64,000 bases of DNA, from positions 9,961 through 73,960 of IMG/VR virus record IMGVR_UViG_3300020020_000028. One strand, given 5' to 3'. Below are positions 38,501-46,774 of the stretch, piece after piece (positions within the stretch are counted from its first letter, which is position 1; each line of letters opens with the position of its first letter). Source of the stretch: a virus. Position numbers and translations under genes: made by a program. Under the pieces are notes generated by a model. That model had not been told where the DNA came from and ran no database searches. It saw nothing but the letters and a program-made list of their open reading frames with translations.

Positions 38501-38789
38501 GAGACACTCGCTCTGTGCGATAGGTGTCGGCCTCCAGTAGTCACATTCTTTCACGTATACGGGAGCTTGAAAATCGCTGCCGATGAAATCCGGAAAGCGA
38601 AACTCGGGGGCTTAAAGTGAACTGGTATGATGTGACGCTGACGCGAGGAGGGCAGATTATCAACCGTGGTTGGCAACTGGCCATGACCGAGAAAGATCTC
38701 ATCGAGCAAGCTCGCAAGAACGGGTTCAATATCGACATTCGTCTCATTGGGAGCGCACTCCCGCAATTTCAGACGCAAGAGATCCTTCA

Positions 38790-39410
38790 ATGACGTGGTT
38801 TACCTCTGATACCCACTTCGGACACGCGGCGATTCTAACGCATGGTCGCTACATCTTTGACAGTGTCGAAAATATGGATGCTGTGTTGATCAAGAATTGG
38901 AATGACCGCGTCGGCCTCCGCGATGATATCTATCATCTCGGGGACTTCAACTTCCGTTCGACGCGCACGACAGCGGAGTATCTTGGTGAATTGCGCGGAC
39001 GGATTCATCTTATCGAAGGCAATCATGATCCGAAGTACGCACTAAGATACCGTCAACTCTTTGCGAGCGTACAGCCAGTCAAGTATCTGAAGCTCGATGG
39101 AAAGCGCATCACGCTCTATCACTACGCACAACGTGTGTGGAGGGGTTCCAATCTCGGATCCTGGCACCTCTATGGACATAGCCACGGAGGGATCCCGGAT
39201 CTCGGACGTTCGATGGACGTGGGTGTCGATGCACAGAGCTTTGCGCCCATCGAGTTCGCACAGGTGCGAGAGGCATTGAAGGACAGGCCGTTTACGTATC
39301 ATCATCCGGACATGGAAATCGAGTGCGTGTGTGATGGTGGTCCGCAAGGTGAGGGCCTTGTGTCGATCCCTCATGCAGTGCATTGTCCGATGAGTAAGGA
39401 AGAGAGATAA
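38790..39410 (+). CDS. Calcineurin-like metallophosphoesterase
   Basis: SDTHFGH, HLGDF, GNHD, HY, GHSH, DVGVD. Confidence 0.9.
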   Translation: MTWFTSDTHFGHAAILTHGRYIFDSVENMDAVLIKNWNDRVGLRDDIYHLGDFNFRSTRTTAEYLGELRGRIHLIEGNHDPKYALRYRQLFASVQPVKYLKLDGKRITLYHYAQRVWRGSNLGSWHLYGHSHGGIPDLGRSMDVGVDAQSFAPIEFAQVREALKDRPFTYHHPDMEIECVCDGGPQGEGLVSIPHAVHCPMSKEER

Positions 39411-39883: not shown

Positions 39884-40571
39884 CTGGTGTCCATGAGCAC
39901 TGAGCACCTTCGGATTGCCCTTGGACTGAAGCCACAGACGCCTTCGGGATGGGCTTTTTGGTTATTTTACTGGTCGCCATTTGCAAGGATGTGGAGACGT
40001 GCGACGGAGATCTGTAGACGATGGCCGTTCGCTGTTCGACGGAGTAGACGATGAATCCGATAGTGGCAGTAGCAGCGATAGTCCTGATATCAGCCGTCGG
40101 GGCCTATCTGTTGGGACGGCGCTAAACTGGCACGAGGTTCCGCAAGCTCTCTACCTCTCATGGTCCCCGGCACGGCAATACGCATACTGCGCTGAGCGGG
40201 ATCTGAGGGCCTCGATAGAGTTCGCGACATCTCCTGAGGAAGAAAAGTGGTTCTACGACCGAGCCGTCAGTTACAAGAGGATGATGGGAGCATCGATTGT
40301 AAACGTTGTAACAACTCCGGCTTCGTAGCCTACTGGGATGGTAGCGCATTGGCTGGAGAAGGATGTCCGGACTGTACAGGTAATGCGATGACGACGTACG
40401 AGGAACTGGAACAAGAGGCATTGAACGATCCTATCCTCCATAGGTTTCTCACGCACTATCGTCGTGGTGATTGCTCGAAGGAAGAGGCGCTGATTGCAGC
40501 CTGTATCTGGCTCTCACGCGCAAGACGAAAGTTACTCAAAGAAGAAGCCGATAGAATTGCGAGACAGCCAC

Positions 40572-41090
40572 ATGGTTGAAAACACTGTAGAAGAATACGA
40601 CAAGCAATCGTGGGGTCGAGGTTTGTGGGATCACGAACCAGATCGTGTCGAAGGTGAACATGCGGGATTCCCGACACTCGCTCGTCGTGGTCCGATGGGT
40701 TCGTGGTGCGGCTACGTGGCTGTGCCTCCGGGGCACTACGATCACGGGATCTACTACGGAGAGGTCGATGGCGATCTCGATGTCCACGGGGGTCTGACGT
40801 ATTCAGGCTTGTGTCATGGTGCGATCTGCCATGTCCCGAAGCCCGGTGAACCCGATAACGTCTGGTGGTTTGGGTTTGACTGCGGGCACTATCGTGACAT
40901 CACGCCGGGGATGATGAAGTATCATTTCGGATCTGACGAGTATTCCACGTACAAGGATCTATCGTACGTGCAGGAAGAGATCAAGAAGCTCGCAGAGCAA
41001 CTCGCAGAGCGAGCGAAGTGGGTGCGCGTCGATGTACATGCGCTCGCTCAGCGGTTGAAGGAAAAATGGACACGGGTCGCTGTCGAGTAG
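40572..41090 (+). CDS. Conserved phage hypothetical protein
   Basis: WCGYVAVP, VHGGLTYS, WWFGFDCGH motifs. Confidence 0.7.
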   Translation: MVENTVEEYDKQSWGRGLWDHEPDRVEGEHAGFPTLARRGPMGSWCGYVAVPPGHYDHGIYYGEVDGDLDVHGGLTYSGLCHGAICHVPKPGEPDNVWWFGFDCGHYRDITPGMMKYHFGSDEYSTYKDLSYVQEEIKKLAEQLAERAKWVRVDVHALAQRLKEKWTRVAVE

Positions 41091-41202
41091 GTTATCATTG
41101 CCAATGAGGAGGTCGCGGGTTCGAATCCCGTCACATGCCGTAACAGGATGTGTAGCTCAGTGGTAGAGCGCTTAAACACCTACTTACGCTCTTTATCCGT
41201 GT
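41070..41202 (+). ncRNA. Y-RNA-like unit 1; cargo = permuted tRNA-Gly(GCC)-like
   Basis: ACACGG/CCGTGT stem, GGGTCG, GTTATC, CTTTATCC; cargo order anticodon loop (TTGCCAA), T arm, closed acceptor, D arm. Confidence 0.85.
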
Positions 41203-41371
41203 TATGTTCGAAACTCTGTGTTGCCGTTGCTGCGTGAGCATGTAAGAGACACGGATAGGGACCGCGTCACGGGCGGTTCCGATTTTATGACGTTGCAAGC
41301 CGTGATTACCCTGAGTCGCGCAAATCGTGAGGTTTGCTGGGTCTGTGGCCTATCGGCTTGGCGTCTCCAGT

Positions 41372-41513
41372 AAGACGTGGGTCGCTGTATTACGGTTCTC
41401 CTATGGGTCGCGGGTTCAAATCCCGTCATCGCGACGCCTAACAAGCTATGCGATGTAGCTCAGTTGGTTAGAGCAATAGATAAAAGTCCGTAAGCACCTC
41501 TTATCCGCGTCTT
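41372..41513 (+). ncRNA. Y-RNA-like unit 2; YrlA-type T-acceptor-D cargo
   Basis: AAGACGTGG/CCGCGTCTT stem; GGTTCAAATCC precedes TAGCTCAGTTGGTTAGAGC. Confidence 0.85.
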
Positions 41514-41535
41514 TGTTCTTTGACAACTTAAATCA

Positions 41536-41595
41536 GTCGGAGGCGCATAGTGCGTGATGATCACACGCAGTAGGGAAACCTACCCTCCGGCACCA
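41536..41595 (+). ncRNA. 60-nt mini tRNA-like RNA ending ACCA
   Basis: GTCGGAGG/CCTCCGGC stem + ACCA, hairpins TGCGTG/CACGCA and GTAGG-GAAA-CCTAC. Confidence 0.6.
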
Positions 41596-41600
41596 CTTAA

Positions 41601-41736
41601 TCCTCGGGTCGCATTGACATCGTTATCTCTTACCATACTCAAGAGGGTAGCTCAGTGGTAGAGCGTCCGATTTGTAATCGGAAGGTCGTGGGTTCGAATC
41701 CCACTCTAACGCGGTGTTGAATCACTTATCCGGGGA
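41601..41736 (+). ncRNA. Y-RNA-like unit 3; cargo = tRNA-Thr(TGT)-like permuted within the acceptor 3' strand
   Basis: Intact D, anticodon (TCCGA-TTTGTAA-TCGGA) and T arms; CTCTTACCA lies 5' of its partner AAGAG. Confidence 0.85.
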
Positions 41737-41749
41737 GTTTTACAATTTC

Positions 41750-41819
41750 CGATTCGGGTCGATCAGATAGCGTTATCCTTAAGAGATAAAAATGCTGTCT
41801 ACGTCACTTATCCGAATCG
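41750..41819 (+). ncRNA. Y-RNA-like unit 4; hairpin cargo with loop CTTAAGA
   Basis: CGATTCGG/CCGAATCG; TTATC-CTTAAGA-GATAA. Confidence 0.85.
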
Positions 41820-41822
41820 ATT

Positions 41823-41915
41823 TTTCCGGGGCGGTTGATATCAGAGTGCGAAAGCAACGCATAACGGCAGAAATGTCGGAGGACCCCGTCGCTAACTCGG
41901 GCGGGAACCCGGAAA
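41823..41915 (+). ncRNA. Unknown multibranch RNA with GAAA tetraloops
   Basis: TTTCCGGG/CCCGGAAA closing; TGC-GAAA-GCA, CGGCA-GAAA-TGTCG, CCCGTC/GGCGGG. Confidence 0.55.
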
Positions 41916-42036
41916 TGTGAGGTAACACAAAACCACTCGGTGCGCTCCCAACTATCGCTCTCTGGTGGAAAGTAGTGTTCGTAAGCCACGTGGGAATTAG
42001 TTCAGGCTAGGTTGCACGTGGGCCTCTTTTTGATCT

Positions 42037-42111
42037 GGGGCTATGCACCTCGCGAGAGGGGGCTGAATAAGGCGAAAGCCGGAGCGGGTGAAAATCCCGT
42101 AGGCTCCACCA
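42037..42111 (+). ncRNA. tRNA-Ala/tmRNA-TLD-like RNA with G3:U70 and ACCA
   Basis: GGGGCT...GCGGG-TGAAAAT-CCCGT-AGGCTCC-ACCA; no canonical D or anticodon arm. Confidence 0.65.
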
Positions 42112-42115
42112 GTCA

Positions 42116-42205
42116 GGAAGGCTGACCGAGCGGCATGGTGCCAGCTTGCTAAGCTGTGGCTTCGCAGAGATGCGATCAGGGGTTCGAGTCCCTTGCCTTC
42201 CGCCA
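42116..42205 (+). tRNA. tRNA-Ser(GCT)
   Basis: GGAAGGC/GCCTTCC-GCCA, CAGC-TTGCTAA-GCTG, long variable arm, GGTTCGAGTCC. Confidence 0.9.
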
Positions 42206-42210
42206 AAGTT

Positions 42211-42282
42211 TTCGACGGGTCGCTCGTGACAGGGTTATCACTCCTAATGATTACCCCCTGCACAATTCACTTATCCGTCGAA
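42211..42282 (+). ncRNA. Y-RNA-like unit 5; hairpin cargo with loop CTCCTAA
   Basis: TTCGACGG/CCGTCGAA; ATCA-CTCCTAA-TGAT. Confidence 0.85.
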
Positions 42283-42327
42283 CTCTCGGGGCTCTGCTCA
42301 AGGAGGTAGCATCCCCAATGATTTTGA

Positions 42328-42477
42328 ATCTCGGGTCGCAGTCGTAGAGTTATCCCAGGAACGAGTGCCCTTCGGGGCATGCGTGGTTCGAATCCCGCTC
42401 CTCTCGAATCAGTGAGAGGATGGCGAAACTGGCAGACGCGCTCGTATTTAGTTCTGCGGCGAATACTTATCCGAGAT
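42328..42477 (+). ncRNA. Y-RNA-like unit 6; cargo = permuted tRNA-Leu(CAG)-like
   Basis: CCCAGGA-ACGAG, variable arm TGCCC-TTCG-GGGCA, T arm, TCCTCTC/GAGAGGA acceptor, Leu-type D loop, CTCGT. Confidence 0.85.
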
Positions 42478-42485
42478 GTGTTTCT

Positions 42486-42600
42486 CCACGGGTCGCGGCT
42501 GTATGGTTATCATTGGTTGAAACTCTGGCCTAAGCCGAAAGGCGTCAAGCCGGAGGGAGGTTCGAATCCTCAATATCCCATACGCACACTTTATCCGTGG
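42486..42600 (+). ncRNA. Y-RNA-like unit 7; long stem + T-arm cargo
   Basis: CCACGG/CCGTGG; CTCTGGC/GCCGGAG; GAGG-TTCGAAT-CCTC. Confidence 0.8.
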
Positions 42601-42695
42601 GTTTGTAGGCAGATGAGCGCGATCTGCCGTCAGCCGGGAGAGACTACTCGTTGCGCTGGTTGCAACCATCAACGACGTTTCTCCCTTGCTGTTTC

Positions 42696-42788
42696 TCCGT
42701 GGGTCGCTGTTTGGAAGGTTATCTTTTTGCCAAAAAAAGGGAGTTGGGTGAAACCCCTGACACCCTTCTGACGATCTTTATCCACGGA
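42696..42788 (+). ncRNA. Y-RNA-like unit 8; cargo with TTGCCAA loop + short hairpin
   Basis: TCCGTGG/CCACGGA; TTT-TTGCCAA-AAA; GGG-TGAAA-CCC. Confidence 0.8.
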
Positions 42789-42793
42789 ACTTC

Positions 42794-42927
42794 TCAGCGG
42801 GTCGCCGGTGACGATTATCTTCTGTCGTAGGTTCGACTCCTACTCTGCTAGGCAACTAGTAGATAGCTCAGTTGGTAGAGCAAAGACGGTATCCACTCCG
42901 TTTCGTCGCTGACTCTTTATCCGCTGA
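42794..42927 (+). ncRNA. Y-RNA-like unit 9; YrlA-type cargo, acceptor closed by GCAA tetraloop
   Basis: TCAGCGG/CCGCTGA; GTAGG-TTCGACT-CCTAC; TCTGCTAG-GCAA-CTAGTAGA; D arm. Confidence 0.85.
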
Positions 42928-43017
42928 ATTTTTTTCAACTCAAGGCGTGGTGTTCTCTGAAAAGAGGCGCAGCTTCCGGAAGCTAGATCTGAAGTGACAG
43001 ATCTCTTGAGTATTTCT

Positions 43018-43085
43018 TTGACGGGTCGATGATTGAGGATTATCTTATAACGATAAAAATCCTTAGTCGATCACTTATCCGTCAA
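43018..43085 (+). ncRNA. Y-RNA-like unit 10; hairpin cargo with loop TTATAAC
   Basis: TTGACGG/CCGTCAA; GATTGAGGAT/ATCCTTAGTC. Confidence 0.85.
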
Positions 43086-43095
43086 TTTCCGATTC

Positions 43096-43158
43096 TTGAC
43101 GGGTCGAATGTGTAGGGTTATCTAGTTAATGATCCCTGCCGATTCACTTATCCGTCAA
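43096..43158 (+). ncRNA. Y-RNA-like unit 11; minimal cargo
   Basis: TTGACGG/CCGTCAA; GTAGGG/CCCTGC. Confidence 0.8.
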
Positions 43159-43172
43159 CTCAAGATCGATAC

Positions 43173-43243
43173 GTCCGGGTCGATAGGGTAGGGTTACCAT
43201 GATCACCAATCATCCACAGCCCTGCTTGACAACTTATCCGGAC
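43173..43243 (+). ncRNA. Y-RNA-like unit 12; hairpin cargo ATGAT-CACCA-ATCAT
   Basis: GTCCGG/CCGGAC; GGGTAGGGT/GCCCTGCTT. Confidence 0.8.
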
Positions 43244-43250
43244 ACTGTTA

Positions 43251-43364
43251 GTAGAGGGTCGCGGTTTTATCGGTTATCAAGGTTCGACTCCTTCCTCACC
43301 CAACTCTGTGGGTGGGGAAGCCTGAAATGGTCAGGCACTCCGATGAACAATCTTTATCCTCTAC
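43251..43364 (+). ncRNA. Y-RNA-like unit 13; T arm + 9-bp acceptor-like stem + D-like arm
   Basis: GTAGAGG/CCTCTAC; AAGG-TTCGACT-CCTT; CCTCACCCA/TGGGTGGGG; GCCTG/CAGGC. Confidence 0.8.
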
Positions 43365-43383
43365 GTTTTGAAAGGTGTGGGAC

Positions 43384-45111
43384 ATGACAGTTAACTACGC
43401 GAAGCACTACAACAAGAAGCAGACGCCGCAGAGCGAGAAGATTCCGGGCGAGAAGCAGGTGGCGAACAACGCTGGAGGCTACGTCTACGAGGTAGACAAG
43501 TGGCAGCGTCTCGCACGGTTCTTGATCCTCGGCACGGACGGCGGCACGTACTACGTCAGCGAGCGAAAGCTCACGCGTGAGAATGCACAGGTTGTCGAAG
43601 CCTGTCTCGCGACGGACGGCGGACGTACGATTGCGGAGATCATCGAGATCTCTCAGACTGGTCGTGCGCCGAAGAACGATCAGGCGGTCTTTGCACTGGC
43701 GCTTGCAGCCTCCGTGCAGGTTCCGGACGCTAGTGGTGTGTCCGCAGAGTCGATCCGTAGCATGGCGCTCGATGCACTGCCGAAGGTCTGCCGGATCCCG
43801 ACGCATCTCTTTCAGTTCATGACGGCGATCAAGGCGATGCGTGGTAGCTCGCGTATGCTCCGTCGTGCACTCGGAGAGTGGTACTCGCAGTGGGACGCAA
43901 ATAAGCTCGCCTACGAACTGGTGAAGTACCAGTCGCGCGAGGGATGGGCGAATCGTGACGTGCTGCGTCTCGCGCACCCGAAGATGTCCGCAGAACATCA
44001 GGCGGTGGTGCGATGGGCTGTCTGCGGCCATGAAGCTGCGGCATCTCCTGGCCCTCGTGAGGTGAAGCGCGCGAAGGAAGATACGCGCACGTCGCGCATC
44101 TATCAGCCGGTTGCTGATGTGCCGAACATCATCGCGGCCTTCGAGTTGGCCAAGACGAAGCCGCCGGTTGAATTGCTTGTGCGTTTGATCCGCGAGCATG
44201 GTCTGACGCGAGAGATGCTGCCGACGGAGTGTCTGAACGAGGTCGCGGTATGGGAGGCATTGCTCGAAAAGATGCCGCTCACGGCGATGATCCGCAATCT
44301 CGGCAAGATGTCTTCGTTGGGGATCTTCGAGCCGTTGAAGTCCAGCGCATGGTCCAAGCACGTGGTCGAGAGGATCACCTCTCAGGAGAACTTGCGGAAG
44401 TCTCGCGTGCATCCGCTGTTCATCTTGAATGCGATGAAGACCTATGCGCAGGGCCACGGTGACAAGGGGTCGTTGAAGTGGACCCCGGCTGCGAAGATCG
44501 TGGACGCGCTCGATGCGGCGTTCTACGAAGCCTTCGGCAACGTGGAGCCCACCGGCAAAAACGTGATGCTGGCGCTCGACGTGAGTGGATCGATGGGTTC
44601 GCTCATCGGTGGCACGAGTCTGTCCTGCCGTGAGGCGTGTGCGGCACTTGCACTCGTCACGCAGGCTGTCGAAGACAACGTGCAGATCGTTGGGTTCACC
44701 AACGGCGGGTCTGTGGCTCGACGTTCGCAGTGGGGTGGATACCTGAGCGGGATTTCTCCGCTCAAGATCTCGAAGCGTCAGCGTCTCGATGACGTAGTGA
44801 AGTACATCGCTGGACTGAACTTCGGAGGCACGGACTGCGCCCTGCCGATGATCTACGCGGAGAGCGAGAAGCTCGATGTCGATGGGTTCGTGGTCTACAC
44901 GGACAACGAGACGTGGGCGGGAGATATCCACCCGTCGCAGGCGCTGCGAAGCTACCGAGCGAAGCAGAACAAGCCGGAGGCGGCACAGGTAGTCGTGGGC
45001 ATGACGGCGAGTGGATTCACGATTGCTTCTCCTGATGATCCTAGAACACTTGATGTGGTAGGCTTCGATCTCGCCACTCCGACGGCGATTTCGGCGTTTA
45101 TCAAAGGGTAA
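43384..45111 (+). CDS. rsr: Ro60/TROVE-vWA RNA-binding protein
   Basis: QVANNAGGYVY, RLARFLILGTDGGTYY, KYQSREGW, MPLTAMIRNLGKM, LALDVSGSM (MIDAS), YTDNETW, DVVGFD. Confidence 0.95.
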   Translation: MTVNYAKHYNKKQTPQSEKIPGEKQVANNAGGYVYEVDKWQRLARFLILGTDGGTYYVSERKLTRENAQVVEACLATDGGRTIAEIIEISQTGRAPKNDQAVFALALAASVQVPDASGVSAESIRSMALDALPKVCRIPTHLFQFMTAIKAMRGSSRMLRRALGEWYSQWDANKLAYELVKYQSREGWANRDVLRLAHPKMSAEHQAVVRWAVCGHEAAASPGPREVKRAKEDTRTSRIYQPVADVPNIIAAFELAKTKPPVELLVRLIREHGLTREMLPTECLNEVAVWEALLEKMPLTAMIRNLGKMSSLGIFEPLKSSAWSKHVVERITSQENLRKSRVHPLFILNAMKTYAQGHGDKGSLKWTPAAKIVDALDAAFYEAFGNVEPTGKNVMLALDVSGSMGSLIGGTSLSCREACAALALVTQAVEDNVQIVGFTNGGSVARRSQWGGYLSGISPLKISKRQRLDDVVKYIAGLNFGGTDCALPMIYAESEKLDVDGFVVYTDNETWAGDIHPSQALRSYRAKQNKPEAAQVVVGMTASGFTIASPDDPRTLDVVGFDLATPTAISAFIKG

Positions 45112-45181
45112 CTGCTACGGTGCTGAGCCGTGGTGGCGCGGGATTCGCTGAGGTGAGGAGCCTCGGCGGTCCCGCATCTTT

Positions 45182-45257
45182 TGGCCGGTAGCTCAGTTGG
45201 TAGAGCGCACGGCTGTTAACCGTGTGGTCGCAAGTTCGAATCTTGCTCGGCCAGCCA
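45182..45257 (+). tRNA. tRNA-Asn(GTT)
   Basis: 76-nt cloverleaf, CACGG-CTGTTAA-CCGTG, ends GCCA. Confidence 0.95.
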
Positions 45258-45982: not shown

Positions 45983-46774
45983 ATGCAACAAACCAAAGAC
46001 ATGGCGGAGCGGAACACGATTCTTCGCGTTCCTGCCGGTAGTACTCTCCACGGGTTGCATATCCCCGGCACAGACGATCAGGACGAGGTCGGTGTCTGTA
46101 TCGAGGATATTCAATCCGCGATTGGATTCTCGGAGTTCGAGCAATTCATTTACCGCACGGCTGCTGAACGTGAAGGTAAGCACGATGCGCCGAGTCAGGC
46201 TGGCGATCTTGATCTGACCATCTTCAGTCTGCGAAAATTCTTGCGTCTTGCGATGCAGGGCAATCCCCAGATTCTGCAATGCTTGTTCGTGCCTCAATCT
46301 CTGTGCCTACAACGTGATTCACGTGGCGCGCAGTTACAGGAGATGGCGCCGTTGATCGTGAGTCGTCAAGCGGGTGCTCGGTATCTTGGGTACCTTGAGG
46401 CGCAACGGCAACGACTCCTCGGAGAACGGGGTCAGAAGAAAACGAATCGTCCGGAACTCGAAGCCAAACACGGCTTCGATACTAAGTACGCGATGCACAT
46501 CTTGCGCCTGGGTTTTCAAGGTGTGGAATTGATGTCCACCGGTCGTCTCACGTTGCCGATGAACGAAGAGGATCGAAAGTTCACCTACGCTGTTCGTTGC
46601 GGTGAAATTCCGTTACAAGATGCACTGACCAAAGCCGGGGAACTGGAACGTCAGATCAAAGATCTACTCCACGACGCACCAATTCCCGCACAACCCGCGC
46701 GTGAAGAAATCGAAGCGTGGATGGTATCGATGTATCTGGAAAATTGGAAGGCGCGTGAAACGGTTCATGCCTGA
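45983..46774 (+). CDS. Pol-beta-superfamily nucleotidyltransferase (RlaP-like)
   Basis: GSTLHGL...DDQDEVGV, KFLRLAMQGNP, DTKYAMHILRL. Confidence 0.8.
   Translation: MQQTKDMAERNTILRVPAGSTLHGLHIPGTDDQDEVGVCIEDIQSAIGFSEFEQFIYRTAAEREGKHDAPSQAGDLDLTIFSLRKFLRLAMQGNPQILQCLFVPQSLCLQRDSRGAQLQEMAPLIVSRQAGARYLGYLEAQRQRLLGERGQKKTNRPELEAKHGFDTKYAMHILRLGFQGVELMSTGRLTLPMNEEDRKFTYAVRCGEIPLQDALTKAGELERQIKDLLHDAPIPAQPAREEIEAWMVSMYLENWKARETVHA

What the first reader, a model, noticed from the sequence alone, without database searches (positions are those of the whole stretch)
41070..45111. Array of 13 Y-RNA-like cassettes with interchangeable tRNA-derived cargo directly upstream of a phage Ro60
Seen: 13 units at 41070, 41372, 41601, 41750, 42211, 42328, 42486, 42696, 42794, 43018, 43096, 43173 and 43251. 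Each has a variable outer stem, GGGTCG(C/A), a variable 8-10 bp stem, TTATC (TTCTC and TTACC once each), cargo, the complementary strand, then C(T)TTATCC and the outer stem. Stem sequences differ between units yet stay complementary, so structure is conserved; the last unit ends 19 nt before the Ro60 ATG. Known: the scaffold resembles the Ro-binding part of Y RNAs (human Y1 GGUCCGA..GUUAUC..CACUUGAC), and bacterial YrlA RNAs fuse such a stem to a tRNA-like module, usually one or two per ro60 locus. Inference: a modular Ro60 RNP library with one constant handle and many cargos, perhaps decoys or substrates for tRNA-targeting defence, or adaptors tethering different enzymes. I do not know of a described array of this size and diversity.
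Basis: partly seen in the sequence, partly recalled or inferred. Interest (0 to 1): 0.95.

Follow-up and report, generated by a model that had tools for sequence, protein, structure and literature searches.

The report
Phage Ro60 with thirteen Y RNAs
A soil phage carries, directly in front of its gene for the RNA-binding ring protein Ro60, thirteen small RNA genes that all share the Ro60-binding 'handle' of Y RNAs but each display a different tRNA-like piece, the largest such array I found among 232 Ro60 loci and about three times what the literature I could read describes.

Summary
Exactly 13 units lie at 41069-43364, all on the + strand, and the last ends 19 nt before the Ro60 ATG (a TROVE plus vWA_Ro60 protein).

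Each unit has:
- a variable outer stem that stays complementary;
- GGGUCG with a bulged C, opposite (C)UUAUCC;
- a variable upper stem;
- UUA(U/C)C, then a different interior.

These are Y RNAs:
- Three units match Rfam YrlA below its threshold, and one matches the nematode sbRNA (Y RNA homologue) family.
- A covariance model built from the short units gave 340 matches in 232 Ro60 loci of phages, bacteria and metagenomes, all on the Ro60 strand and most of them just upstream of Ro60.
- Covariation is strong.

Interiors:
- five permuted tRNA bodies (YrlA topology), one of which is called tRNA-Leu(CAG) after re-permutation;
- one tRNA-Thr body in normal order (Yrn1 topology);
- two with a T-arm or T-like hairpin and no D-arm;
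- five mini-hairpins, three of them with anticodon-like 7-nt loops.

Other loci hold 1-7 units, so 13 is the extreme of a widespread and little-described family.

Function is inferred, not shown. I read the array as a set of Ro60 particles that display tRNA mimics, acting as decoys or adaptors.

Earlier reports of this scan describe similar handle-sharing RNA arrays beside Ro60-like genes on other DNA.

The parts
41069..41203 (+). Unit 1. YrlA-type Y RNA: handle, small hairpin with loop UUGCCAA, T-arm, closed acceptor-like hairpin, D-arm.
   Evidence: Rfam YrlA 38.0 bits, E 7e-6. Model R1 29.0 bits.
41374..41511 (+). Unit 2. YrlA-type Y RNA (T-arm, acceptor-like hairpin, D-arm). Its loop motif is UUCUC.
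   Evidence: Rfam YrlA 43.2 bits, E 2e-7.
41601..41736 (+). Unit 3. The handle carries a tRNA-Thr(UGU) body in normal order (D-arm, anticodon arm, T-arm). The acceptor stem is cut to about 3 bp and there is no CCA. This is the Yrn1-type topology.
   Evidence: Rfam tRNA 56.8 bits over model positions 6-65 only. ARAGORN does not call it. Fold.
41750..41819 (+). Unit 4. Short Y RNA. UUAUC pairs with GAUAA around the 7-nt loop CUUAAGA.
   Evidence: R1 67.0 bits.
42037..42111 (+). tRNA-shaped RNA without a handle: acceptor stem with G3:U70, a T-arm, short hairpins in place of the D and anticodon arms, and an ACCA end. It sits inside the array but is not a unit.
   Evidence: Fold -29.3 kcal/mol, z -2.2. 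Weak tmRNA match of 8.7 bits. Not called by ARAGORN.
42116..42205 (+). True tRNA-Ser(GCU) inside the array.
   Evidence: ARAGORN. Rfam tRNA 44.9 bits.
42211..42282 (+). Unit 5. Short Y RNA with the 7-nt loop CUCCUAA.
   Evidence: R1 65.5 bits.
42328..42477 (+). Unit 6. The handle carries a complete class II tRNA-Leu(CAG) body that is circularly permuted. The acceptor ends are closed by an 8-nt loop. The anticodon loop is opened between positions 33 and 34 and runs into the handle.
   Evidence: When the cargo ends are rejoined and the closing loop is cut, ARAGORN calls tRNA-Leu(CAG). Fold. R1 35.8 bits.
42485..42601 (+). Unit 7. Handle, small hairpin, branched stem, then a T-arm. No D-arm.
   Evidence: R1 28.7 bits.
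42696..42788 (+). Unit 8. Handle with two hairpins, one of them T-like (GGGUGAAACCC).
   Evidence: R1 50.9 bits.
42794..42927 (+). Unit 9. YrlA-type Y RNA with one extra hairpin after the D-arm.
   Evidence: Rfam YrlA 45.6 bits, E 5e-8, full model length. Fold.
43018..43085 (+). Unit 10. Short Y RNA with the loop UUAUAAC. It is a paralogue of unit 4 and has the same outer stem as unit 11.
   Evidence: R1 68.2 bits.
43096..43158 (+). Unit 11. Short Y RNA. It is the only unit with the full GNCGAA-N-G motif.
   Evidence: Rfam RF01656 (nematode sbRNA) 25.3 bits, E 0.003. R1 62.5 bits.
43173..43243 (+). Unit 12. Short Y RNA. Its loop motif is UUACC and its hairpin loop has 5 nt.
   Evidence: R1 56.2 bits.
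43251..43364 (+). Unit 13. YrlA-like: T-arm and a 9-bp acceptor-like hairpin, with a plain hairpin in place of the D-arm. It ends 19 nt before the Ro60 start.
   Evidence: R1 27.2 bits.
43384..45111 (+). Phage Ro60 (Rsr) gene, 575 aa.
   Evidence: Pfam TROVE 8e-50 and vWA_Ro60 4e-55. PHROG 850. PDB Ro60 9nen 4e-111, 1yvp 4e-108, Rsr 2nvo 1e-101.
45182..45257 (+). True tRNA-Asn(GUU), 70 nt after the Ro60 stop.
   Evidence: ARAGORN. Rfam tRNA 70 bits.
45983..46774 (+). RlaP-type nucleotidyltransferase, a neighbour from an RNA-repair-associated family.
   Evidence: Pfam PF10127 8e-26. PHROG 388 3e-58.

Best explanation
The region is a tandem array of 13 Y RNA genes, that is, genes for small non-coding RNAs bound by Ro60. 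They are co-oriented with the phage's own Ro60 gene and lie directly upstream of it.

Each RNA pairs its 5' and 3' ends into the Ro60-binding helix: GGGU/AUCC, a bulged C, a G-U pair, and a few unpaired bases on the 3' strand. A variable upper stem and the motif UUA(U/C)C follow. The same three features define animal Y RNAs and nematode sbRNAs.

On this constant handle each RNA shows a different module:
- a tRNA body permuted so that the acceptor end is sealed and the anticodon side runs into the handle (YrlA topology; units 1, 2, 6, 9, 13);
- a tRNA body in normal order attached by its acceptor side (Yrn1 topology; unit 3);
- a T-arm or T-like hairpin without a D-arm (units 7, 8);
- a mini-hairpin, often with a 7-nt loop of anticodon form (units 4, 5, 10, 11, 12).

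The following steps are inferred, not shown. The array is transcribed together with tRNA-Ser and Ro60 and is cut into single RNAs. Each RNA loads onto Ro60, giving a family of particles that differ only in the tRNA-like face. These faces engage proteins that recognise tRNA. Most plausibly they act as competitive decoys for host tRNA-cleaving or tRNA-modifying enzymes during infection. Alternatively they tether Ro60 to such enzymes.

My confidence of 0.8 is for the identity (an array of Ro60-partner Y RNAs). For the decoy role alone I would give about 0.3.
For: Anatomy and chance:
- 13 of 13 pattern matches lie on one strand in 2.3 kb, against 1.1 expected.
- All units fold into the same closing helix.
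- Cognate stems pair far better than non-cognate ones.

Identity of the handle:
- YrlA model matches for units 1, 2 and 9, E 7e-6 to 5e-8.
- The sbRNA family consensus aligns to unit 11 through GGUC(C)G, GGGUUAUC and ACUU..CCG.
- Chen 2014 describes the GNCGAA motif and the YrlA and Yrn1 topologies.

Linkage to Ro60:
- Model R1 gives 118, 97 and 125 matches at E<=1 in 72 phage, 80 genome and 80 metagenome Ro60 loci. All 340 are on the Ro60 strand.
- In the phage set, 108 are upstream (median distance 449 nt) and 10 are downstream, eight of these within about 360 nt.

Covariation:
- 88.4% of cells are paired against 59% in shuffles and 37-46% with slid partners. The score is 0.737 against 0.216, with 0 of 500 shuffles as high.
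- Inside the conserved helix the pair is U-A in 123 units, C-G in 114 and anything else in 8.

Cargo:
- Folds and T/D-arm motifs.
- Unit 3 matches the tRNA model at 56.8 bits.
- Unit 6 re-permuted is called tRNA-Leu(CAG).
- 7-nt loops have U at position 2 and A at position 6 in 23 of 31 phage units, and in 26 of 26 and 19 of 26 bacterial units.

Context:
- True tRNAs lie inside or beside the arrays, here and in L065.
- An RlaP nucleotidyltransferase and a phosphoesterase are neighbours.
Against: - There is no expression, processing or binding data. No RNA run holds the sequence.
- No unit reaches the Rfam gathering score for YrlA (69 bits) or for the sbRNA family (38 bits), and the vertebrate Y_RNA model gave no match.
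- The full GNCGAA motif is present in only one of the 13 units.
- No RNA ligase (RtcB or Rnl type) was found in the roughly 70%-complete record, so a classical repair module is not evident.
- The anticodon-like form of the 7-nt loops is also what any U-turn loop looks like. It occurs equally in bacterial Ro60 loci, so it is not specific to a phage counter-defence role.
- Alignment A2 was fitted to the model's structure, which inflates pair counts. The anchored tests do not have this problem.
Confidence: 0.8

Rival explanations
1. Adaptor (tether) library. The units are Y RNAs as above, but their modules recruit enzymes to Ro60 rather than blocking them. Examples are PNPase, as in the RYPER complex, or RNase P, RNase Z and tRNA-modifying enzymes. 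Different RNAs would direct the Ro60 ring to different tasks in RNA decay or maturation during infection.
For: - Tethering of Rsr to PNPase by a Y RNA is the only demonstrated bacterial mechanism.
- Both Yrl RNAs of Thermus phage phiLo form ternary complexes with Ro60 and host PNPase.
- The tRNA-like domains of YrlA are substrates of tRNA enzymes.
- The same family, with the same loop form, sits in bacterial chromosomes, where a housekeeping or stress role is more natural than anti-defence.
Against: - One tether would be enough for PNPase. Thirteen different tRNA-like faces, with several anticodon-like triplets and a whole tRNA-Leu and tRNA-Thr body, are hard to explain by one or a few partners.
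- No nuclease partner gene is seen next to the array.
Confidence: 0.3
2. Cis-acting leader. The 13 handles are Ro60-binding sites in a long 5' untranslated region of the Ro60 mRNA. They would let the protein control its own synthesis or stability, and no separate small RNAs are made.
For: - The array ends 19 nt before the start codon, on the same strand, with no clear promoter or terminator between.
Against: - In other loci, units also lie downstream of Ro60 (10 of 118 in phages) and between tRNA genes.
- Known Y RNAs from the same gene arrangement are processed out of operon transcripts.
- Autoregulation would not need conserved tRNA-like modules, 13 copies, or a true tRNA in the middle.
Confidence: 0.05
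3. Decayed tRNA gene cluster or selfish repeat. The units are remnants of tRNA genes, or a repeat family that spread locally, with no function of their own.
For: - Many units contain tRNA arms, and phages often carry tRNA clusters.
Against: - Both stems keep pairing through compensatory changes within the array and across 295 distinct units from phages and bacteria.
- The handle is found only beside Ro60 and only on its strand.
- The units differ too much in sequence to be recent repeats.
Confidence: 0.02

Closest known systems
YrlA-type bacterial and phage Y RNAs with Rsr/Ro60 (Rfam RF02553; Chen et al. 2014, PMC4201824)
   Same: - They are encoded next to Ro60 on the same strand.
- The 5'/3' stem carries a G-N-C-G-A-type motif.
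- The tRNA-like domain has the order T-arm, sealed acceptor-like hairpin, D-arm (units 1, 2, 9, and in variant form 6 and 13).
- Matches to the YrlA model are significant but below threshold.
   Different: - There are 13 genes here. Chen 2014 report about 1.3 per genome (355 in 276 genomes), and my survey found 1-7 per locus.
- No unit reaches the family's gathering score.
- The handle carries UUA(U/C)C, which the texts I read describe only for animal Y RNAs and nematode sbRNAs and not for bacterial ones.
- Most units here are not of YrlA build.
Deinococcus radiodurans Yrn1 (Y RNA of the RYPER complex)
   Same: D-arm before T-arm, with the stem-loop between them in the anticodon-arm position, as described in Chen 2014. 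Unit 3 has this order.
   Different: - Unit 3 holds a nearly complete tRNA-Thr body that scores 56.8 bits on the tRNA model.
- I made no sequence comparison with Yrn1 here.
Vertebrate Y RNAs and nematode stem-bulge RNAs (Rfam RF01656; Kowalski et al. 2015, PMC4450293)
   Same: [quoted passage not shown]
- The RF01656 consensus aligns with unit 11 over all three elements.
- The phage Ro60 is as close to vertebrate Ro60 as to Deinococcus Rsr.
   Different: - The score is below the family threshold (25.3 against 38 bits), and the vertebrate Y_RNA model gave no match.
- The loop domains are tRNA-like here.
- The genes are arrayed and presumably cut out of one transcript, not single Pol III genes.
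Thermus phage phiLo Ro60 with Yrl1 and Yrl2 (PMC12135203)
   Same: A phage-encoded Ro60 with Y-RNA-like genes just upstream, where binding to Ro60 was shown.
   Different: - phiLo has two RNAs, not 13.
- Those are described with a CGAA bulge motif and no tRNA-like modules.

Membership tests
Y RNA (Ro60-partner RNA, functional class) | The 5' and 3' ends pair into a conserved helix with a single bulged C and unpaired bases on the opposite strand (the Ro60 binding site). | tested here: met
   All 13 folds show it. The outer-stem columns covary. The helix pair is U-A or C-G in 237 of 245 units.
Y RNA (Ro60-partner RNA, functional class) | Encoded beside a Ro60 gene (the prokaryotic rule). | tested here: met
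   The array ends 19 nt before Ro60. All 340 model matches in 232 Ro60 loci are on the Ro60 strand.
Y RNA (Ro60-partner RNA, functional class) | Exists as a discrete small RNA that is bound by Ro60. | not testable with these tools
   No RNA run is listed as a holder. Binding needs an experiment.
YrlA (Rfam RF02553) | Score at or above the curated gathering threshold of 69 bits. | tested here: not met
   The best scores are 45.6, 43.2 and 38.0 bits for units 9, 2 and 1. The other units give no match.
YrlA (Rfam RF02553) | tRNA-like domain in the order T-arm, closed acceptor-like stem-loop, D-arm. | tested here: met
   Met for units 1, 2 and 9. Unit 6 is met by re-permutation to tRNA-Leu. Unit 13 lacks a D-arm. 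Eight units do not have this build.
YrlA (Rfam RF02553) | GNCGAAN0-1G motif in the stem (Chen 2014). | tested here: inconclusive
   Only unit 11 has it in full. The others read GUCGC or GUCGA followed by another base. Among 285 related units, CGAA occurs in 114.
Animal Y RNA / nematode sbRNA | [quoted passage not shown] | tested here: met
   UUAUC in 11 units, UUACC in 1, UUCUC in 1. 263 of 295 related units carry it.
Animal Y RNA / nematode sbRNA | Match to the family models at their thresholds (RF01656 at 38 bits; RF00019). | tested here: not met
   RF01656 scores 25.3 bits for unit 11, and 20.1 or 13.6 bits for unit 10. RF00019 gave no match at E<=10.
tRNA | Complete cloverleaf with a 7-bp acceptor stem able to carry CCA. 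| tested here: not met
   Unit 3 matches only model positions 6-65 and ARAGORN does not call it. Unit 6 is a tRNA only after artificial re-permutation.

The most novel reading that the evidence does not exclude
The phage uses Ro60 as a common carrier for a panel of tRNA-part mimics. The panel includes anticodon-type loops with different triplets, tRNA elbows, and a whole tRNA-Leu opened exactly 5' of the wobble base, so that it resembles a nicked tRNA. The panel would act as a broad RNA-based counter-measure, or sensor, against host enzymes that cut or modify tRNAs during infection. The array grew to 13 by duplication and module swapping under that arms race.
Probability: 0.22. Interest if true: 0.9.

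Novelty: new variant of a known kind. Interest (0 to 1): 0.72.

Why it matters
The function of bacterial and phage Y RNAs, and of their tRNA-like domains in particular, is an open question.

- **A natural experiment.** This locus has one Ro60 and 13 RNAs that keep the binding handle constant while varying the displayed tRNA-like face. Both known topologies (YrlA and Yrn1) are present, together with a complete permuted class II tRNA and bare anticodon-type loops. This gives a ready-made set of constructs for asking what the modules bind.
- **A wider family.** The survey shows that this handle family is widespread beside Ro60 in soil bacteria and phages. It is missed by the Rfam YrlA threshold.
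- **A link to animal Y RNAs.** The family carries the UUA(U/C)C loop motif and the bulged-C helix, which the papers I read describe as hallmarks of animal Y RNAs and sbRNAs. One review states that the bacterial Y RNAs are highly divergent from the vertebrate ones and not homologous with them. If the resemblance reflects common descent, the motif probably belongs to Ro60 biology and not only to eukaryotic DNA replication.

Tried and rejected
- **Second model.** All surveys therefore use model R1. It was trained on this handle dialect, so unit counts in distant loci are lower bounds.
- **Pattern scans.** The accepted 17-base pattern returned mostly chance matches: only 5 of 80 listed loci held real units when checked with R1.
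- **Expression.** No RNA holder is listed for the stretch. Laying contigs could only confirm the DNA.
- **RNA repair genes.** RtcB and RNA-ligase families were not found in the roughly 70%-complete record.
- **Re-permutation of other units.** Blind re-permutation of units 1, 2, 9 and 13 with free join points gave no stable tRNA identity. Unit 1 was often called Gly(GCC) through its small UUGCCAA hairpin, and unit 13 gave no call at all. I make no identity claim for those units.
- **Promoters and terminators.** The scan found no more sites than shuffled sequence.
- **Literature.** Two Wolin-lab reviews (PMC10870794, PMC6047535) and the supplements of Chen 2014 are not held. 'Largest described' therefore rests on the papers I could read.
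- **Close relatives.** No Ro60 relative above 53% identity was found in any collection. Unit-by-unit orthology could not be examined.

Full report
**What is there.** The window is most of a 73,960-base IMG/VR virus record from soil, estimated about 70% complete. Its family A DNA polymerase is only about 25% identical to that of any cultured phage. Between 41069 and 43364, all on the + strand, lie 13 units of 63-150 nt.

The pattern GGGTCG, 8-16 bases, TT(A/C)(C/T)C occurs 13 times in the window. All 13 are in this stretch, against 1.1 expected. Each has a TTATCC partner downstream. Every unit folds so that a few variable bases before GGGU pair with the bases after AUCC. That gives an outer helix of about 9 bp with the C of GGGUCG unpaired. 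A second, variable helix follows and ends just before UUAUC (UUCUC in unit 2, UUACC in unit 12). The interior differs from unit to unit.

Unit 13 ends 19 nt before the ATG of a 575-aa protein with TROVE and Ro60-type vWA domains. That protein matches solved Ro60 structures at E 4e-111 (vertebrate) and 1e-101 (Deinococcus Rsr). With filters off, my covariance model finds exactly these 13 units in 64 kb. The next score drops from 26.8 to 14.6 bits. Independent contigs from the probable source run tile the region without differences, and two other soil studies hold exact pieces.

**Is the structure selected?** Within the array, each 5' outer strand pairs with its own 3' strand over 5.2 bp on average, against 1.3 bp with the strands of other units. 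The longest upper-stem helix is 8.5 against 5.2. These tests are anchored on the invariant motifs and need no alignment.

I built model R1 from nine short units, six from the window and three from a distant phage (L078). I searched 72 phage, 80 genome and 80 metagenome loci that encode relatives of this Ro60 (35-53% identity).
- At E<=1 there were 118, 97 and 125 matches, and all 340 lie on the Ro60 strand.
- In the phage set 108 lie upstream (median distance 449 nt) and 10 downstream.
- On the 66 best phage matches, 88.4% of cells form pairs, against 59% after shuffling and 37-46% with slid partners. Seventeen of 19 pairs show double changes. That alignment is fitted to the model.
- The motif-anchored count within the conserved helix is independent of it: U-A in 123 units, C-G in 114, anything else in 8.

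**What kind of RNA.**
- Units 9, 2 and 1 match the Rfam YrlA model over its full length at 45.6, 43.2 and 38.0 bits (E 5e-8 to 7e-6). This is below the gathering score of 69.
- Unit 11 matches the nematode stem-bulge RNA family RF01656 at 25.3 bits (threshold 38). The printed alignment shows that the shared elements are the bulged-C helix, GGGUUAUC and ACUU..CCG.
- The literature defines the Ro60 site on Y RNAs as a helix with one bulged cytidine and a bulge on the opposite strand. [quoted passage not shown]
- All three elements are present in the phage units. UUA(U/C)C is present in 263 of 295 distinct related units.
- The review read states that bacterial Y RNAs are highly divergent from the vertebrate ones and not homologous with them. 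That makes this resemblance worth noting.
- The GNCGAA motif of Chen 2014 is complete only in unit 11 here. CGAA occurs in 114 of 285 relatives.

**The interiors**.
- Units 1, 2 and 9 have a T-arm, then a sealed acceptor-like hairpin, then a D-arm. This is the YrlA topology.
- Unit 13 is the same, with a plain hairpin instead of the D-arm.
- Unit 6 is a complete class II tRNA. When the 8-nt loop that seals its acceptor stem is cut and the two cargo ends are joined, ARAGORN calls tRNA-Leu(CAG) with a long variable arm. In the unit, the anticodon loop is open between positions 33 and 34, and both ends run into the handle.
- Unit 3 has the opposite build. It is a tRNA-Thr(UGU) body in normal order that scores 56.8 bits on the tRNA model over positions 6-65. 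It is joined to the handle through a 3-bp remnant of the acceptor stem. This is the topology that Chen 2014 describe for Deinococcus Yrn1.
- Unit 7 has a T-arm and unit 8 a T-like hairpin, both without a D-arm.
- Units 4, 5, 10, 11 and 12 are short. In units 4, 5 and 10, UUAUC (or part of it) forms the 5' strand of a small hairpin with a 7-nt loop: CUUAAGA, CUCCUAA and UUAUAAC.

In short units of other phages, 31 of 81 predicted hairpin loops have 7 nt. Of these, 23 have U at position 2 and 23 have A at position 6. In the bacterial set the figures are 26 of 26 and 19 of 26. Typical loops read C-U-N-N-N-A-A, which is the form of an anticodon loop. It is also the form of U-turn loops in general, so I treat 'anticodon mimic' as a lead and not a result.

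**How unusual is 13?** With R1 at E<=1, 160 of the 232 loci have at least one unit. The counts are 75 loci with one unit, 47 with two, 19 with three, 10 with four, 4 with five, 2 with six, 2 with seven, and this window with 13.
- The larger arrays elsewhere (L078, L341, L059) also mix YrlA-type, T-arm-only and short units.
- In L065 the units alternate with true tRNA genes, as tRNA-Ser does here.
- Bacterial metagenome-assembled genomes of Longimicrobium, Gemmatimonadaceae, Myxococcota, Armatimonadota and Chloroflexota have up to five units.
- These counts are lower bounds, because R1 is tuned to this handle.
- In print I found about 1.3 YrlA per genome, four small RNAs encoded upstream of Deinococcus rsr, of which Yrn1 is the major Rsr-bound one, two Yrl RNAs in Thermus phage phiLo, and a suggestion of up to three in a Listeria phage. 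I found no description of large arrays.
- Earlier reports of this scan describe arrays of 4-8 handle-sharing RNAs beside Ro60-like genes in other phages, and about 20 in giant viruses. I did not test those.

**Mechanism.**
- Shown: the anatomy, its conservation and its linkage to Ro60.
- Inferred from the families involved: the units are cut from a common transcript and each binds the phage Ro60 through the handle. [quoted passage not shown]
- The modules are tRNA mimics, and YrlA domains are substrates of tRNA enzymes.
- Two roles are on the table. One is competitive inhibition of tRNA-targeting enzymes, a possibility that Hughes 2020 raise for YrlA and an anticodon nuclease. The other is tethering Ro60 to partner enzymes, as with PNPase.
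- The diversity of tRNA identities and topologies in one array favours a role in which many different tRNA-recognising proteins are addressed. I lean slightly to the decoy reading for the phage.
- The presence of the same family in bacterial chromosomes, and the lack of an RNA ligase in the record, keep the adaptor reading nearly as likely.
- A purely cis-regulatory leader or decayed tRNA genes are unlikely, given units downstream of Ro60 and between tRNAs elsewhere, and the covariation.

**Verdict.** This is a real and unusually large array of Ro60-partner Y RNAs with modular tRNA-like interiors. It is a new variant of a known kind. What is new is its size, the co-occurrence of both known topologies with a whole permuted class II tRNA, and the animal-type handle with UUA(U/C)C in a phage and bacterial family that current Rfam thresholds do not capture. 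Function remains inferred.

Noticed in passing
window 42037-42111: A 75-nt tRNA-shaped RNA without the Ro handle. It has a 7-bp acceptor stem with G3:U70, a T-arm (GCGGG/UGAAAAU/CCCGU), short GNRA-type hairpins in place of the D and anticodon arms, and an encoded ACCA end. It lies 4 nt before tRNA-Ser. ARAGORN and the Rfam tRNA model do not call it; there is only a weak tmRNA match (8.7 bits).
   Followed up: partly
window 41512-41600, 42602-42695, 42928-43017, 45112-45181: The spacers between units, and the stretch between Ro60 and tRNA-Asn, fold into strong hairpins (z -3.0, -3.9, -2.8 and -4.9 against mononucleotide shuffles). They could be processing or termination signals, or further small RNAs without the handle.
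   Followed up: partly
downstream flanks of 295 units (window and loci L009-L355): The 9 nt after the outer stem are U-rich (T 0.32-0.39 per position, against about 0.21 expected at 57% GC). Examples here are AUUUUUUUC after unit 9 and GUUUUGA after unit 13. This recalls the U tail of animal Y RNAs or weak terminators.
   Followed up: partly
L065:3649-11516: In this phage locus the Y-like units alternate with at least 14 true tRNA genes on the Ro60 strand, so Y RNAs and tRNAs probably share transcripts and processing.
   Followed up: partly
L041:55-278 and L141:138-832: These are two ends of one 47,462-base viral contig. Two units and Ro60 lie at one end and four units at the other. If the contig is circular or circularly permuted, it carries one array of at least six units.
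   Followed up: no
L341:2959-3895 and L078:5073-5924: These are the next largest arrays I found: seven units each, directly upstream of Ro60, in a metagenome contig and in a high-GC phage contig. Both mix YrlA-type, T-arm-only and short units.
   Followed up: partly
L196-L275 (for example L215, L207, L204, L210, L200): Bacterial metagenome-assembled genomes of Longimicrobium and other soil phyla carry 3-5 units of the same handle family upstream of their Ro60. Several have a GUGAAAA loop. This family is not captured at the Rfam YrlA threshold.
   Followed up: partly
window 38670-39410, 40494-41090 and 45983-46774: The neighbours of the array are a calcineurin-type phosphoesterase (PHROG 547, 1e-48), a protein of unknown function (PHROG 2164) whose stop lies inside unit 1, and an RlaP-type nucleotidyltransferase from an RNA-repair-associated family. 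No RNA ligase was found in the record.
   Followed up: partly
window 43018-43158 and 41750-41819: Units 10 and 11 share the identical outer stem (UUGAC/GUCAA) but differ in upper stem and loop. Units 4 and 10 share the GAUAAAAAU segment but have different loops and compensated upper stems. Both are signs of growth by tandem duplication followed by divergence.
   Followed up: partly
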